From NCBI RefSeq assembly GCF_009914755.1, contig NC_060933.1: a DNA stretch of 64,000 nt, one strand, 5' to 3'. A program made the translations under genes and the position numbers. Shown piece by piece: positions 24,260-27,322 of the stretch. The notes beneath the pieces were generated by a model, which made no database searches, was not told the origin of the DNA, and was given only the letters and a program-made list of their open reading frames with translations. This DNA comes from the human T2T-CHM13v2.0 reference genome, Homo sapiens. Position 1 is the stretch's first letter; each line of letters begins with the position of its first letter.

Positions 24260-24274
24260 TTTTTTTTTTTTTTT

Positions 24275-24613
24275 GTGAGCAACAAGGCTGTTTATTTCAC
24301 CTGAGTGCAGGTGGGCTGAGTCCAAAAAGAGAGCAAAAGGTGATTGGATTATCATTAGTTCTTATAGGTTTTGGAATAGGCAGTGGAGTTAGGAGCAATG
24401 TTTTGCGGGCAGGAGTTGGATCTCACAAAGTACATTCTCAAGGGTGGGGAGAATTACAAATTACAAAGAACCTTCTCAAAGGTGAGGGAGATTAAAAAGA
24501 ACTTTCTTAAGGGTGGGGGAGATTACAAAATACATCAGTTAGTGTGAAGCAGAAACAAAACACAATGGTGGAATGTCATCAGTTAAGGCTATTTTCACTT
24601 CTTTTGTGGATCT
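24275..24613 (-). mobile_element. HERV-H LTR fragment (LTR7B-like), partial U3 plus R, ending at its poly(A) site
   Basis: Minus strand reads AGATCCACAAAAGAAGTGAAAATAGCCTTAACTGATGACATTCCACCATTGTG ... CCTATAAGAACTAATGATAATCC ... GGACTCAGCCCACCTGCACTCAGGTGAAATAAACAGCCTTGTTGCTCACA-poly(A). This matches my recall of LTR7-family sequence. U5 and the first part of U3 are absent. Confidence 0.85.
24291..24296 (-). terminator. AATAAA polyadenylation signal of the LTR, used by the retrocopied transcript
   Basis: TTTATT on + at 24291-24296, 16 nt from the start of the T tract at 24274. Confidence 0.85.
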
Positions 24614-24805
24614 GGGACGTGAGGAGTGCCTCTGCCTGGACGCCCATTGTCTGGGATGTGAGGAGCGCCTCTGCCCGGCCGCCCCATCTGGGAAGTGAGG
24701 AGCTCCTCTGCCTGGCCACCCCGTCTGAGAAGTGAGGAGCGCCTCTGCCCGGCCGCCCCATATGGGAAGTGAGGAGCGCCTCTGCCTGGCCACCCTGTCT
24801 GGGAG
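24612..24805 (+). repeat. SVA/LAVA-type GC-rich VNTR, about 5 units of 38-40 bp
   Basis: Units of TCTGGGAAGTGAGGAGCGCCTCTGCCCGGCCGCCCCA with variants. Confidence 0.92.
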
Positions 24806-24835
24806 GTCTACCACAGAGGCCAGACGCAGTGTGGG

Positions 24836-24943
24836 GGCTGGACGTGGTGGCTCACGCCTGTAATCCCAACACTCTGGGAGGCCAAGGTGGGTTGATCACT
24901 TGGGGCTAGGGGTTCGAGACCAGCCTGGTCAACATGGCAAAAC
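24836..24943 (+). mobile_element. Alu left-arm fragment (AluS-type), part of the composite
   Basis: GGCTGGACGTGGTGGCTCACGCCTGTAATCCCAACACTCTGGGAGGCCAAGGTGGGTTGATCAC...GTTCGAGACCAGCCTGGTCAACATGGCAAAAC; no right arm. Confidence 0.9.
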
Positions 24944-25289
24944 ATATGAAAATTACAACAAACCAAACAACCAATCAACCAACCCAGCAACAACAAAACA
25001 GGTCTACCCTGGAGTCATACTCTAAATTTTTCTATTTTCCTCCCTTTCTGATCCTTTATCCCACTTTCTTTTTCTTCCTCTTCCTTCTCCTTCTTGTCAA
25101 AGACATAGAGGATTGAGTTATTATCATTGATCAATACAAAGTCCCTCTCTCATTTATTTTCTTTCATTCCCACCCCCCATTTCTATTCCCCATCTTCCTG
25201 TGTGCAACCTTCCTAATATGTTTGATATGCTTCTTTTTGTATATATTTTTAGAAAATGTTAAATAAAAAAAATTTAAGAAAGCCCTGCA

Positions 25290-26853
25290 AAAGCAGGAAA
25301 GCTGAACTGGCTGCTGAGCCCCTTCTGGTTGGCCACACAGTACCCACAACTGTAGCCCCTGGACTCCTAGTGTGGGCTAAGGTGGAGTGGACCCTCTGGC
25401 TTGGTCACAGTGCAATGGGCCACCTGGAAACTATCCAAAAGAGAAGACCTACCAGCCCGTGCCCTAGGTGCAGCTGCCACCCGCACATCAGGCACCAGCA
25501 GCAATGGCCAGACCATCCCTGATTCTCCATGCCCTCCCCATCCCCACGTCAACAGCAAGGAATCCCTGACAGGATGCTGCAGTAGTGGCTGTCAGGAAGT
25601 CGGCTGGGCAGGTGCATAACGATAAAGATAGACTCTCAGCCCCATCCCTATGGCCACGATGTGCTCATCCCCTGGCGGCTCCTCAGCCCTATCCTAGTGG
25701 CCACGGAGTGGCATGCAGGCAGCAGCCTTGGGAACCCCGATTGCCCGTCCTCACACGTGCCCATCACAAGACTTGGGCGACGGGGAGGTGAAGTCAGACT
25801 GTGTCCCCAGCGGCACCACAAGGCCGAGAACCGGCACTCAGCCTCAACCCCGTGACTGCAGGGTGCCAAGTGCCAGGTCCTGCGCTCTGGGCATGGGTCA
25901 GGAGCAGCTGGCAAGGGCAGCACAGCCTGTGGGGCCCTTGGGCATGGCCAGCCGCAGCTCCGGGAAGCCACTGCAGCTCCGGGAAGCCACGTCAGCCCAC
26001 GGGCACTGCAGCTGCAGCTGCCACCAGCACATGGAGCAGGGGTCACTGAGGATTGGGAATCCCCGACCAGGCTAGCGCCTCCAGCCGCGCAGACCCCGGG
26101 GGCCAGCCCAGCCGCGGCAAGTCAGGTAGTCTGCGGCAGGAGCGCCGGACATGGGTTTTGGCCCGGGGTGCAGGAGGCATGCACCCTCTGGCCAGATGGG
26201 TGGTGCACTCAGGGCCCAGGAGGCCATCCCAGGGGAACCCCGCCAGCCTCTGCCAGAGCTCAAGCTGAAGCTGCCACCTGCAAGTGGTGCGCTGGCTGCA
26301 GCGGTGGCAACCCCAGATCCCATCCTCCCACCTCACGCCCATCAGCGCAGACCCCAGGGGTGACGCAGTGACGAAGTAGGGCTGTGGTCCCAGTGGCAGC
26401 ACCAGGCGGAGAAGCACCACTCAATCCCATCCCTGGGCTGCAGAGGGCCCAGCGTGGGGGGCTCCGAGCATCGGGAGCCAGTGGAAGAGGAGAAGAGCAC
26501 GTGGGCGACAGTCAAACAGGCCCTGGGGCAGGGTGTGCCTCATGCTCCAGGGAGCCCCGCCAGCCCGAGGCACCTGAGCAGCAATCGCCGCCTGCACTGG
26601 GTGCCACGAGAGAGCTGCTAGGGCGGTTTCTCCACCTCGGGCCTGTTGCTCGGGACCAGCTAAGGTGCACATGCTCGCTGGTCCTGACCATTCTGTTGGG
26701 CATTTCTGCTGAGAGGCGGGAGGTGCTGAGAGTCTCTGCGAAGGTCCATGGACAGACTGCATTGCTTGTTGTTGTGCTTCGGAGGCGGCGATCCCCGAAG
26801 GCGAGCTGAAATATAGCTGGAGCGTTCCCAGGCTACAATTTGCAGTGACGATT
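25290..26853 (+). promoter_or_regulatory. GC-rich segment: upstream, promoter and 5'UTR region of an ANKRD36-family gene, captured antisense in the retrocopy
   Basis: GC- and CpG-rich unique DNA running contiguously into the ANKRD36-like start codon (GGCGAGCTGAAAT...CAGGCTACAATTTGCAG...ATTATGGAAG). Promoter activity is inferred only. Confidence 0.6.
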
Positions 26854-27003
26854 ATGGAAGATGAGCCGGAGTGGTGGCCCACCCTCAGGGAGCACTTGTG
26901 CTCGTATGGCTTCTCATTTCCCCAGTACCATATTAAATCATCTCATCTGAGGAGGATCCACAGAGCTGTCTTCTGTGGTAATCTGGAGAAAGTGAAATAC
27001 CTT
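26854..27003 (+). pseudogene. ANKRD36: ANKRD36-family exon 1 coding fragment, truncated
   Basis: Translates [50 protein letters not shown], against the recalled ANKRD36 N-terminus [51 protein letters not shown]. Similarity stops abruptly at 27003. Confidence 0.85.
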
Positions 27004-27082
27004 TGTCTGAGTAGTTGTCGACTTTGTTTCCACATTAACTGGCTGTTTTGTTGTGGCTGCACTTCTGTTTCATTACCTTCAT
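27004..27082 (-). pseudogene. STRN: Single 79-bp striatin (STRN) exon
   Basis: Minus strand ATGAAGGTAATGAAACAGAAGTGCAGCCACAACAAAACAGCCAGTTAATGTGGAAACAAAGTCGACAACTACTCAGACA encodes (D)[25 protein letters not shown](Q), matching recalled [31 protein letters not shown]. Confidence 0.85.
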
Positions 27083-27217
27083 CTTGCAGGACGGAGTCTT
27101 GGCCGCAGACTGAGCCTGTACCTCACCCGTCTCCCACCGACTCTTGGTACTGGCCATGGCCATGCTGGGCAGCTCTATGGAGGCCTGGTGGGCTACCTTG
27201 GGGGTTCAGTCAGTGAT
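27083..27217 (-). pseudogene. LSP1: Single 135-bp LSP1 (lymphocyte-specific protein 1) exon with an in-frame stop
   Basis: Translates [44 protein letters not shown], against recalled LSP1 [45 protein letters not shown]; exactly 45 codons. Confidence 0.88.
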
Positions 27218-27322
27218 CCTTTCACAGCTGGGGAGTGGAGACTGGGCCTGTGGTGGTGCTGTGTGCCTCCCAGCGCCTGGGGCGGTGCTCTGCACCTCCC
27301 GGTGCCTGCGGCGGTGCTGTGC
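27218..27322 (-). repeat. First exon of the chimera, with about 2.5 copies of a 29-bp GC-rich repeat (TAR1/subtelomeric 29-mer-like)
   Basis: Minus strand: GCACCGCCGCAGGCACCGGGAGGTGCAGA / GCACCGCCCCAGGCGCTGGGAGGCACACA / GCACCACCACAGGC. The TAR1 resemblance is from recall. Confidence 0.55.

What the first reader, a model, noticed from the sequence alone, without database searches (positions are those of the whole stretch)
24260..27322. Six-part chimeric spliced transcript retrotransposed into alpha satellite (29-mer exon / LSP1 / STRN / anti-ANKRD36 / LAVA-like / HERV-H LTR)
Seen in sequence: poly(A), AATAAA, a 10-bp exact TSD (16 bp with one mismatch), and abrupt joins at whole-exon boundaries (105 + 135 + 79 bp, then a ~2.7-kb last exon). 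From recall: LSP1, STRN and ANKRD36 are unrelated genes whose fragments occur in pericentromeric duplication mosaics. Inference: a mosaic locus produced a germline fusion RNA with a repeat-derived start and an ERV-derived end, and L1 machinery copied it here. It is a fossil of exon shuffling and could be one member of an undescribed mobile composite family.
Basis: partly seen in the sequence, partly recalled or inferred. Interest (0 to 1): 0.9.

Follow-up and report, generated by a model that had tools for sequence, protein, structure and literature searches.

The report
Retrocopy of a lost multi-gene fusion transcript
This 3.1-kb insert in chr9 alpha satellite is an L1-made, intronless copy of a spliced RNA that stitched together pieces of several unrelated genes and repeats; it is one of four independent insertions of that RNA, and it carries a human fossil of the module that defines the gibbon LAVA retrotransposon.

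Summary
Window 24260-27322 (minus strand) is a processed retrocopy with an A16 tail, an AATAAA signal and a 10-bp exact TSD (16 bp with one mismatch). It interrupts a 171-bp alpha-satellite array.

Its three exon joins (105|135|79|2.73-kb last exon) fall exactly on canonical AG/GT sites in extant donor sequences:
- an LSP1-paralogue first exon made of 29-bp repeats;
- an LSP1 exon;
- a STRN exon;
- an acceptor on the antisense strand of an ANKRD36-like promoter region.

The last exon is a DNA-level mosaic: antisense ANKRD36-like sequence, an antisense VNTR-U1-Alu-U2-L1ME5-poly(A) element, and an LTR7 poly(A) site.

CHM13 holds six copies. Two other chr9 copies share the flanks and are segmental duplicates. 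The chr3, chr5 and chr13 copies have their own flanks, tails and TSDs. The four insertions are four different splice isoforms, so an intron-bearing parent gene must have existed. No complete parent remains in CHM13. Partial LSP1-paralogue-then-STRN-exon mosaics survive on chr1 and chr2.

The antisense passenger is the published "LAVA 3' module" (one of "six human copies"), here still joined to a VNTR at the LAVA-type junction. I did not find that in print.

This is a known kind of element (chimeric processed pseudogene), of moderate interest.

The parts
27323..27338 (-). 5' target-site duplication. It is 10 bp exact at 27323-27332. Up to 16 bp, it reads AAAAAGTAGACAAAAG on the sense strand.
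   Evidence: identical 10-mer at 24250-24259. The extension matches the start of the tail with one mismatch. The target resembles an L1 endonuclease site (TTTTT/A on the primed strand; consensus recalled).
27218..27322 (-). Exon 1 (105 bp). A CpG-rich 29-bp tandem repeat that is probably the transcription start of the parent gene.
   Evidence: TRF gives a 29-bp period x 2.7. It is 81-86% identical to a segment 4.4 kb upstream of the LSP1-like exon in the chr2 and chr1 LSP1 paralogues, where GT follows at the same end. It is absent from the chr11 LSP1 locus fetched. Three of the four insertions begin at the same repeat phase.
27083..27217 (-). Exon 2 (135 bp), an LSP1 coding exon in sense.
   Evidence: 94% identical to chr11:1972630-1972767, flanked there by AG and GT. 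The gene name comes from the locus position and my recall of the protein.
27004..27082 (-). Exon 3 (79 bp), a STRN coding exon in sense.
   Evidence: 99% identical to chr2:36912677-36912757, flanked there by AG and GT. The longer chr5 isoform hits Pfam Striatin at E = 1.7e-16.
25282..27003 (-). First part of the last exon: the antisense strand of an ANKRD36-like promoter and first coding exon (a 50-codon open frame on + at 26854-27003).
   Evidence: 87% identical to chr2:88773463-88775175 over 1.72 kb, with an AG acceptor exactly at the exon start there. Three paralogues at chr2:96.3, 97.6 and 98.0 Mb match part of it. It ends at 25282 with no GT in the paralogue, so that end is a DNA-level breakpoint. 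The ANKRD36 name is recalled from map positions.
25261..25281 (+). A-rich tail of the passenger retroelement (AAATAAAAAAAA) plus 9 unassigned bases (TTTAAGAAA).
   Evidence: Not present in the progenitor locus and shared by all six copies.
24804..25260 (+). LAVA-type 3' module (U1, partial Alu, U2, L1ME5), antisense to the transcript.
   Evidence: 90% identical to chr9:108435613-108436071. The published LAVA qPCR primers hit 24999-25022 (+) and 25128-25151 (-), giving the published 153-bp amplicon. Strand and the 'AT before U1' detail match the HSD17B3 intron 2 progenitor locus of Meyer 2016.
24614..24803 (+). SVA-type VNTR, about 5 units of 37-39 bp, joined to U1 as TCTGGGAG|GTCTACC.
   Evidence: TRF 24610-24804, period 37, 5.2 copies. 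The junction is identical in all six copies, and the progenitor reads ...atatAG|GTCTACC.
24276..24613 (-). HERV-H LTR7 fragment, from about LTR position 82 to the native poly(A) site, in sense. It supplies AATAAA (24293-24298).
   Evidence: Best match is a solo LTR at chrX:151956269-151956610 (93%). Other genomic matches among those scored are 87-89% (6258 candidates, 40 scored). In full LTRs the sequence runs on past the point where the tails start here. The LTR7 name is recalled.
24260..24275 (-). Poly(A) tail (A16).
24250..24259 (-). 3' target-site duplication (10 bp exact).

Best explanation
The insert is an L1-mediated processed retrocopy of a spliced, polyadenylated chimeric RNA from a now-missing gene in a pericentromeric duplication mosaic.

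The gene's layout, in order:
- It started in a CpG-rich 29-bp-repeat exon that heads the LSP1 paralogues.
- It spliced through duplicated LSP1 exons (135 bp, optionally 77 bp).
- It continued into duplicated STRN exons (optionally 105 and 86 bp, then 79 bp).
- It ended in a 2.7-kb terminal exon.

The terminal exon was assembled at the DNA level. It begins on the antisense strand of an ANKRD36-like promoter. It then runs backwards through a previously inserted VNTR-U1-Alu-U2-L1ME5-poly(A) retroelement. It terminates at the native poly(A) site of an HERV-H LTR7.

Alternatively spliced mRNAs of this gene were reverse-transcribed into the genome at least four times (chr9, chr3, chr5, chr13). The chr9 insertion landed in monomeric alpha satellite and was later copied twice with its flanks by segmental duplication.

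Shown: the anatomy, the splice-site concordance, the isoforms, the independent flanks, tails and TSDs, and the duplicates. Inferred: germline expression, L1 as the enzyme source, the order of DNA-level events in the terminal exon, and loss of the parent.
For: Retrocopy hallmarks and alpha-satellite interruption.

Splice concordance of all joins with donor AG/GT sites.

Six copies in CHM13. Of these, L021 (chr9:42.41 Mb, 99.1%) and L022 (chr9:47.59 Mb, 93.8%) align through both 400-bp flanks. L023 (chr3), L024 (chr5) and L025 (chr13) align only within the insert.

Own tails and TSDs:
- chr13: about 15 bp, AAAAAATTTAGCACA.
- chr3: about 11-16 bp, ending AAGTGAAAATG.
- chr5: A-rich and ambiguous.

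Four isoforms:
- chr9: 105-135-79-last.
- chr3: the same, plus a 21-nt extension of the last exon that matches the bases just upstream of the acceptor in the chr2:88.77 paralogue.
- chr5: 105-135-77-105-86-79-(+21)last.
- chr13: 105-135-105-86-79-last.

All copies share the same three DNA-level junctions in the terminal exon. The poly(A) tails start where full LTR7s continue into downstream sequence.

Mosaic context: 4 of 6 LSP1 paralogues have a STRN 105-bp exon copy 165-182 kb downstream on the same strand. The STRN duplicon at chr1:143.99 Mb is 94.8% identical to STRN over at least 8.8 kb.
Against: No locus in CHM13 carries the complete set of pieces separated by introns.
- The 86- and 79-bp STRN exons occur only in STRN itself and in the retrocopies (8 of 8 candidates scored).
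- The three extant STRN duplicons examined (chr1:143.99, chr2:91.68, chrY:27.27 Mb) hold only the 105-bp exon within about 27 kb downstream.
- The ANKRD36-like/VNTR-element/LTR7 junctions occur only in the six retrocopies.
The parent is therefore inferred, not seen.

The 79-bp STRN exon is 99% identical to the real gene, which also fits direct use of STRN transcripts.

The chr5 TSD is ambiguous. The chr13 copy has a 20-nt gap inside the 79-bp exon that I read as a later deletion.

Branch lengths are not clock-like: the chr9 lineage is about twice as long as the others. The genome search scores only the best candidates, so short 5'-truncated copies could be missed (tool text).
Confidence: 0.9

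Rival explanations
1. A self-propagating composite retrotransposon family, analogous to SVA or LAVA, in which retrocopies themselves act as source elements and are preferred L1 substrates.
For: Four independent full-length or near-full-length insertions. The element contains a VNTR and an Alu fragment and has its own CpG-rich 5' end.
Against: Only four insertions were found genome-wide. Each is a different exon combination, which an intronless source copy could not generate, because the exon ends in the copies lack GT donors (for example CTGCAAG|GATATT). The VNTR and Alu are antisense and 5'-truncated, and lack the CT-hexamer/Alu-like 5' domain (Meyer 2016 passages, tie efficient mobilisation to the 5' portion).
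Confidence: 0.05
2. The chimera was made by trans-splicing, or by read-through between separate loci (an LSP1 paralogue, the real STRN gene, an ANKRD36-like locus), rather than by one mosaic gene.
For: No complete parent locus exists in CHM13. The 79-bp STRN exon is 99% identical to STRN itself.
Against: The same order of partners recurs in four isoforms with alternative exon use, which is typical of one transcription unit. The retrocopies' 105-bp STRN exon shares CCTA with all three duplicon copies examined (chr1, chr2, chrY) and GAAAAG with the chrY duplicon, against CCTG and GGAAAG in STRN (two sites only). LSP1 paralogues and STRN duplicons are already linked in cis on chr1 and chr2.
Confidence: 0.07
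3. The joins were made by L1 reverse-transcriptase template switching between different RNAs (bipartite or tripartite chimeric retrogenes), not by splicing.
For: Multi-part chimeric retrocopies are known to arise this way (recalled: Buzdin and colleagues). The terminal-exon junctions are not at splice sites.
Against: The three 5' joins, and all the extra joins in the chr5 and chr13 copies, fall exactly on AG/GT exon borders. The non-splice junctions are identical in four independent insertions, so they pre-existed in the template. One part is antisense and carries its own internal A-tail, which template switching does not produce.
Confidence: 0.02
4. All copies arose by DNA-level segmental duplication of one mosaic segment.
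For: Two of the five other copies do share flanks and TSD with this one.
Against: The chr3, chr5 and chr13 copies share no flank sequence with this one. They end in their own poly(A) tails at the same LTR7 site, chr3 and chr13 have clear TSDs of their own (chr5's is ambiguous), and they differ by whole exons.
Confidence: 0.01

Closest known systems
Processed pseudogenes/retrocopies of chimeric (read-through or fusion) transcripts, e.g. PIPSL from PIP5K1A-PSMD4
   Same: An intronless, polyadenylated, TSD-flanked copy of an mRNA that joins exons of unrelated genes at canonical splice sites, made by L1 in the germline.
   Different: Here at least six source modules are joined, including a repeat-derived first exon, an antisense promoter, an antisense composite retroelement and an ERV poly(A) site. 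Four isoforms were captured. The parent gene is no longer present in the reference.
Gibbon LAVA (L1ME5-AluSz-VNTR-Alu-like) and its 3' progenitor locus in HSD17B3 intron 2 (Carbone 2012, PMC3606032: passages, section 14 and supplements 3-4 seen; Meyer 2016, PMC5174737: passages seen)
   Same: The passenger element has VNTR, then U1, partial Alu (sense), U2, L1ME5 and an A-tail containing AATAAA, in LAVA's order and orientation. Homology to the progenitor starts right after the 'AT' that Meyer 2016 give as the U1 border. The published LAVA primers amplify it in silico.
   Different: No CT-rich or Alu-like 5' domain is visible. Its 3' end stops at least 16 nt before the position of the LAVA L1M5_R primer. 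It sits antisense inside another transcript and is in human, whereas LAVA is reported as gibbon-only.
SVA exon-trapping / 5'-transduction families such as SVA_F1 with MAST2 exon 1 (recalled)
   Same: Host-gene exons spliced to a VNTR-containing unit and then retrotransposed.
   Different: Here the VNTR element is antisense and passive. There is no SINE-R, and the 3' end is LTR7. Mobilisation looks like ordinary pseudogene formation.
Annotated LSP1 pseudogenes (LSP1P2-P5: search listing only; locations recalled, not checked)
   Same: The chr5, chr3 and chr13 copies and the chr1/chr2 duplicons are probably what is catalogued under these names.
   Different: The name implies plain LSP1 pseudogenes. 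I found no description of the STRN, ANKRD36, LAVA-module and LTR7 content or of the isoform series.

Membership tests
L1-mediated processed retrocopy | Intronless, with joins exactly at donor exon borders | tested here: met
L1-mediated processed retrocopy | 3' poly(A) tail downstream of a poly(A) signal | tested here: met
   A16 lies 17 nt after AATAAA. Tails are also present at the chr3, chr5 and chr13 copies.
L1-mediated processed retrocopy | Target-site duplication at an A/T-rich L1 endonuclease-like site | tested here: met
   10-16 bp here. Clear at chr13 and chr3, ambiguous at chr5. The endonuclease consensus is recalled.
L1-mediated processed retrocopy | An intron-bearing parent gene exists | tested here: inconclusive
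   Each piece has an intron-bearing donor, and partial LSP1-paralogue/STRN mosaics exist. No complete parent is present in CHM13.
LAVA | VNTR joined to U1-AluSz-U2-L1ME5 derived from HSD17B3 intron 2 | tested here: met
   with the descriptions seen.
LAVA | CT-rich hexamer and Alu-like 5' domain | tested here: not met
   The VNTR abuts LTR7 after about 5 units and no such domain is present. The element may be truncated or hidden beyond the transcript end.
LAVA | LAVA 3' end (L1ME5 module reaching the L1M5_R primer site) | tested here: not met
   The primer maps to progenitor L027 2598-2617. The module's homology ends at 2614. The primer is absent from the window.
LAVA | Shared derived substitutions/indels with LAVA consensus relative to the progenitor | not testable with these tools
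SVA | SINE-R 3' domain | tested here: not met
   The VNTR is followed by the U1/Alu/L1ME5 module, not SINE-R. The SINE-R sequence is recalled.
Segmental duplicate of this insertion | Same flanks and same TSD | tested here: met
   Met for chr9:42.41 Mb (99.1%) and chr9:47.59 Mb (93.8%). Not met for chr3, chr5 and chr13.

The most novel reading that the evidence does not exclude
The antisense passenger is a relic of a proto-LAVA. On this reading, the VNTR-to-HSD17B3-intron fusion that defines LAVA's 3' half arose once, by ordinary splicing from the VNTR donor GGGAG|GT to the existing AG of ...atatAG|GTCTACC. No AT-to-AG mutation is needed. It arose before or around the gibbon/great-ape split, amplified only in gibbons, and survives in great apes solely as a passenger in this chimeric transcript's retrocopies. 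That would move LAVA's origin out of the gibbon stem and settle between the published origin models.
Probability: 0.35. Interest if true: 0.7.

Novelty: new member of a known kind. Interest (0 to 1): 0.55.

Why it matters
First, the four retrocopies are a fossil record of an extinct, alternatively spliced fusion gene born in a pericentromeric duplication mosaic. In the longest isoform the LSP1 and STRN frames are fused in phase for 147 codons. This documents exon shuffling by duplication, with a repeat-derived first exon at the 5' end and an ERV-derived terminator.

Second, it explains what the previously reported "six human copies" of the LAVA 3' module are, and shows that they keep a VNTR at the LAVA-type junction. 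Meyer 2016 state that the steps leading to LAVA's origin are not clear, and they place the fusion in the gibbon ancestor. Orthology checks of four dated human insertions in ape T2T assemblies would test that directly.

Third, on the practical side, these loci are likely catalogued as plain LSP1 pseudogenes and as separate repeat fragments, which hides their common origin.

Tried and rejected
1. Search for a complete parent locus. Whole-genome searches used the 5' exons, the central part, the 3' part and the extra exons of the chr5 isoform. I also inspected about 27-30 kb at the chr1, chr2 and chrY STRN duplicons. No complete parent was found.

2. chrY:27.22-27.27 Mb as a relative of the parent. 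It has an exon-1-like 29-mer 140 bp from an ANKRD36-like piece in the opposite relative orientation, and a STRN 105-bp exon copy 44 kb away.

3. chr2:88.77 Mb as the parent's terminal exon. It is the structurally closest paralogue and joins the tree at the chr5/chr13 node. It lacks the VNTR element and LTR7, and its branch is about twice as long. I cannot tell sister from descendant.

4. Splice explanation for the terminal-exon junctions. There is no GT at the ANKRD36-like end, and no donor in the antisense VNTR at the LTR7 join. I read both as DNA-level junctions. I found no TSD for the passenger element. Its 5' end may lie beyond the LTR7 poly(A) site and so be invisible in the retrocopies.

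5. Comparison with a LAVA sequence. The supplement consensus was cut after 400 characters. Motif searches in supplements and main text found nothing. Three primers give a few LAVA positions. Two positions agree with the passenger against the human progenitor, but they cannot be polarised without an outgroup.

6. Dating. Non-CpG K2P between independent copies is 2.5-4.3% over the whole insert. The passenger differs from its progenitor by 3.8-6.6% non-CpG, with 11 fixed differences in about 450 bp. With an assumed rate of about 1e-9 per site per year this gives roughly 10-25 My. That is too coarse, and too un-clock-like, to place the events before or after the gibbon split.

7. Pfam on the LSP1-derived part and on the 50-codon ANKRD36-like frame gave no hit at E <= 0.01.

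8. Literature. Searches of the held library gave no paper containing LSP1+STRN+retrocop*, none containing 'LAVA-like'+retrotransposon, and nothing relevant in the listing for chimeric+processed pseudogene+LTR7+polyadenylation. Ianc et al. 2014 is not held. It may already give the splice model, and possibly the human copies. A wrongly recalled DOI fetched an unrelated paper.

9. Tool closures.

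
Full report
WHAT IS THERE

The window is mostly alpha satellite. Arrays of 171-bp period lie at 6407-24265, 27323-30916 and 37241-64000. At 24260-27322 one array is cleanly interrupted by 3,063 bp of unrelated, partly very GC-rich sequence.

Read on the minus strand, the insert ends in A16. AATAAA lies 17 nt upstream of the tail. The insert is flanked by a 10-bp exact direct repeat. 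The repeat reaches 16 bp with one mismatch if the first As of the tail are counted, and the target is an A-rich site of the kind L1 endonuclease uses (the consensus is recalled).

ANATOMY ON THE SENSE STRAND (insert coordinates; window = 27322 minus position plus 1)

Positions 1-105 are a 29-bp tandem repeat. It is homologous at 81-86% to a segment 4.4 kb upstream of the LSP1-like exon in LSP1 paralogues on chr2 and chr1. In the chr2 paralogue inspected (L031), GT follows at exactly the same end. The segment was not found in the 9 kb fetched around the chr11 LSP1 exon, so it is a separate module.

Positions 106-240 equal an LSP1 exon (chr11:1.97 Mb, 94%), bounded there by AG and GT. Positions 241-319 equal a STRN exon (chr2:36.91 Mb, 99%), also bounded by AG and GT. 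Position 320 begins immediately after an AG, preceded by a pyrimidine-rich stretch, in the closest ANKRD36-like paralogue (chr2:88.77 Mb) read in antisense.

The STRN identity is supported by Pfam Striatin (E = 1.7e-16, above the curated cutoff) on the longest isoform. The LSP1 and ANKRD36 names rest on map position and recall.

THE LAST EXON (320-3047) IS NOT ONE SOURCE

- Positions 320-2041 follow the ANKRD36-like promoter and first coding exon in antisense. Identity to chr2:88.77 Mb is 87%, and three further chr2 paralogues match part of it.
- At 2041 the similarity stops with no GT in the paralogue, so this is a DNA breakpoint.
- Next come 21 bases that, on the other strand, read AAATAAAAAAAA plus TTTAAGAAA.
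- Then come 457 bases that are 90% identical to chr9:108435613-108436071.
- Then come about five 37-39-bp SVA-type VNTR units.
- Last come 338 bases of an LTR, which I recognise as HERV-H LTR7, running from about LTR position 82 to its natural poly(A) site.

THE PASSENGER ELEMENT

On the window's + strand the middle pieces read VNTR, U1, partial Alu (sense), U2, L1ME5, A-tail. This is the order and orientation published for the 3' half of gibbon LAVA (Carbone 2012, passages).

[quoted passage not shown] Their qPCR Assay 1 primers hit the window at 24999-25022 and 25128-25151. That gives exactly the published 153-bp amplicon.

Meyer 2016 place the single-copy "LAVA 3' progenitor locus" in HSD17B3 intron 2 on human chr9, in gene orientation, with "AT" immediately before U1. 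My chr9:108.4 Mb locus fits this. Homology to the passenger starts right after ...aaaatAT. I did not lift the coordinates over.

CHM13 has seven loci with this module: the progenitor plus the six copies of the present element.

All six copies share three things:
- the same VNTR-U1 junction, TCTGGGAG|GTCTACC;
- derived differences from the human progenitor, namely a 7-bp deletion with changes in the Alu tail, a 5-bp insertion, and 11 fixed substitutions in about 450 bp;
- the same A-tail.

Because the progenitor reads ...atatAG|GTCTACC, the junction is what splicing from the VNTR's GGGAG|GT donor to that AG would give. It does not need the AT-to-AG mutation that Meyer 2016 postulate in their trans-splicing model. 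From my recall of its abstract, Ianc 2014 names splicing as the mechanism. That paper is not held.

The passenger is not simply a LAVA:
- no CT-rich or Alu-like domain is present;
- its 3' end stops at least 16 nt short of the LAVA L1M5_R primer site.

COPIES ELSEWHERE

Genome searches with three sections of the insert find six full-length or near-full-length copies.

- chr9:42.41 Mb (99.1%) and chr9:47.59 Mb (93.8%) align through both 400-bp alpha-satellite flanks. They are segmental duplicates of this same insertion.
- The chr3:75.44, chr5:29.03 and chr13:24.23 Mb copies align only within the insert, at 87-92%.
- Those three have unrelated flanks. Their poly(A) tails start at the same LTR7 site. 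Their TSDs are clear at chr13 and chr3 and ambiguous at chr5.

ISOFORMS

The four insertions differ by whole exons.

- chr9: 105-135-79-last.
- chr3: the same, but its last exon starts 21 nt earlier. The extra bases match the sequence just upstream of the acceptor in the chr2:88.77 paralogue, so this is an alternative 3' splice site.
- chr5: additionally carries an LSP1 77-bp exon and STRN 105- and 86-bp exons, plus the 21 nt.
- chr13: carries the two extra STRN exons but not the 77-bp exon, and has a 20-nt gap in the 79-bp exon.

Every extra exon is bounded by AG and GT in LSP1 or STRN. An intronless copy could not yield these variants, since the exon ends in the copies lack GT. All four must therefore come from an intron-bearing, alternatively spliced parent.

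In the chr5 isoform the LSP1 and STRN frames are fused in phase for 147 codons.

THE PARENT

No complete parent exists in CHM13.
- The 86- and 79-bp STRN exons occur only in STRN and in the retrocopies (8 of 8 candidates scored).
- The terminal-exon junctions occur only in the retrocopies.

Parts of the mosaic do survive.
- Six LSP1 paralogues on chr1 and chr2 carry the 29-mer exon, the 135-bp exon and the 77-bp exon in order.
- Four of the six have a copy of the STRN 105-bp exon 165-182 kb downstream on the same strand.
- The chr1:143.99 Mb STRN duplicon is 94.8% identical to STRN over at least 8.8 kb. It stops about 5.2 kb past that exon, and the other STRN exons are absent within about 27 kb.
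- The retrocopies' 105-bp exon shares one base with all three duplicon copies examined and one base with the chrY duplicon, against STRN itself. This is weak evidence from two sites, but it points to a duplicon rather than STRN as the source.
- chr2:88.77 Mb is the structurally closest relative of the terminal exon's first part. It lacks the passenger and LTR7.

AGES

Between independent copies, K2P is 4.6-8.6% over all sites and 2.5-4.3% with CpG-affected columns removed. The passenger differs from its progenitor by 3.8-6.6% non-CpG.

With an assumed rate of about 1e-9 per site per year, this suggests roughly 10-25 My. Rates are visibly unequal, with the chr9 lineage about twice as long as the others. 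I therefore cannot place the events relative to the gibbon split. The chr9 duplicates differ from this copy by 0.65% and 2.7% (non-CpG).

MECHANISM AND RIVALS

The best-supported account is ordinary processed-pseudogene formation from a chimeric gene assembled by pericentromeric duplication (confidence 0.9). The rivals are weaker.
- A self-propagating composite family is unlikely given four insertions that each need the intron-bearing parent.
- Trans-splicing between dispersed loci is not excluded, but it fits the repeated partner order, the cis-linked remnants and the duplicon-type bases poorly.
- Template switching is contradicted by the exact exon borders.
- DNA-only duplication holds only for the two extra chr9 copies.

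WHAT IS NEW

The kind of element is known. In the held library I found no paper containing LSP1, STRN and retrocop* together and none containing "LAVA-like" with retrotransposon. The two relevant LAVA-origin papers returned by the LAVA+HSD17B3 search place the VNTR-U1 fusion in the gibbon ancestor.

That the "six human copies" are one chimeric retrocopy family, still carrying a VNTR at the LAVA-type junction, appears not to be stated in what I could read.

Repeat and gene names not backed by a call (LTR7, L1ME5 and AluSz beyond the papers' wording, ANKRD36BP2, LSP1P numbering, PIPSL, SVA_F1) are from recall.

Noticed in passing
window 3-5824: A 48-bp-period tandem array (about 121 units, 74% matches) precedes the alpha satellite. 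It is a different satellite family abutting the monomeric alpha array.
   Followed up: no
window 30916-37241: A second, roughly 6.3-kb interruption of the alpha-satellite array. It overlaps the long masked stretches 30611-36393 in the hub's table and is probably another retroelement insertion.
   Followed up: no
L023 (chr3:75435100-75442300) 1950-2094 and 5180-5480: The chr3 copy is inserted inside a host LTR7 in the same orientation, so its own LTR7-derived 3' end sits about 200 bp from the host LTR's matching segment. I read this as coincidence.
   Followed up: partly
L041 (chrY:27216001-27226000) 5097-5823; L038 3917-4021: chrY carries an exon-1-like 29-mer segment 140 bp from an ANKRD36-like promoter piece in the opposite relative orientation to the retrocopy, and a STRN 105-bp exon copy 44 kb away. 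That exon copy is the closest match (97%) to the retrocopies' exon.
   Followed up: partly
chr22:22711642-22711939 (table; not fetched): At least seven tandem copies of the same 29-bp unit that forms exon 1. Shorter matches lie at chr16:35.28 Mb and several chr1, chr2, chr9 and chr15 pericentromeric sites. The unit may mark duplicon borders.
   Followed up: no
L024 (chr5 copy) 2137-2577: In the longest isoform the LSP1 and STRN reading frames are joined in phase for 147 codons before a stop. The lost parent gene may therefore have encoded an LSP1-striatin fusion peptide.
   Followed up: partly
L028 (chrX:151952800-151959700) about 3389-3813: A solo LTR7 inserted within an Alu is the closest genomic relative (93%, against 87-89% for the other scored matches) of the LTR7 fragment in the retrocopies. 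It may be of the same subfamily as the lost source LTR.
   Followed up: no
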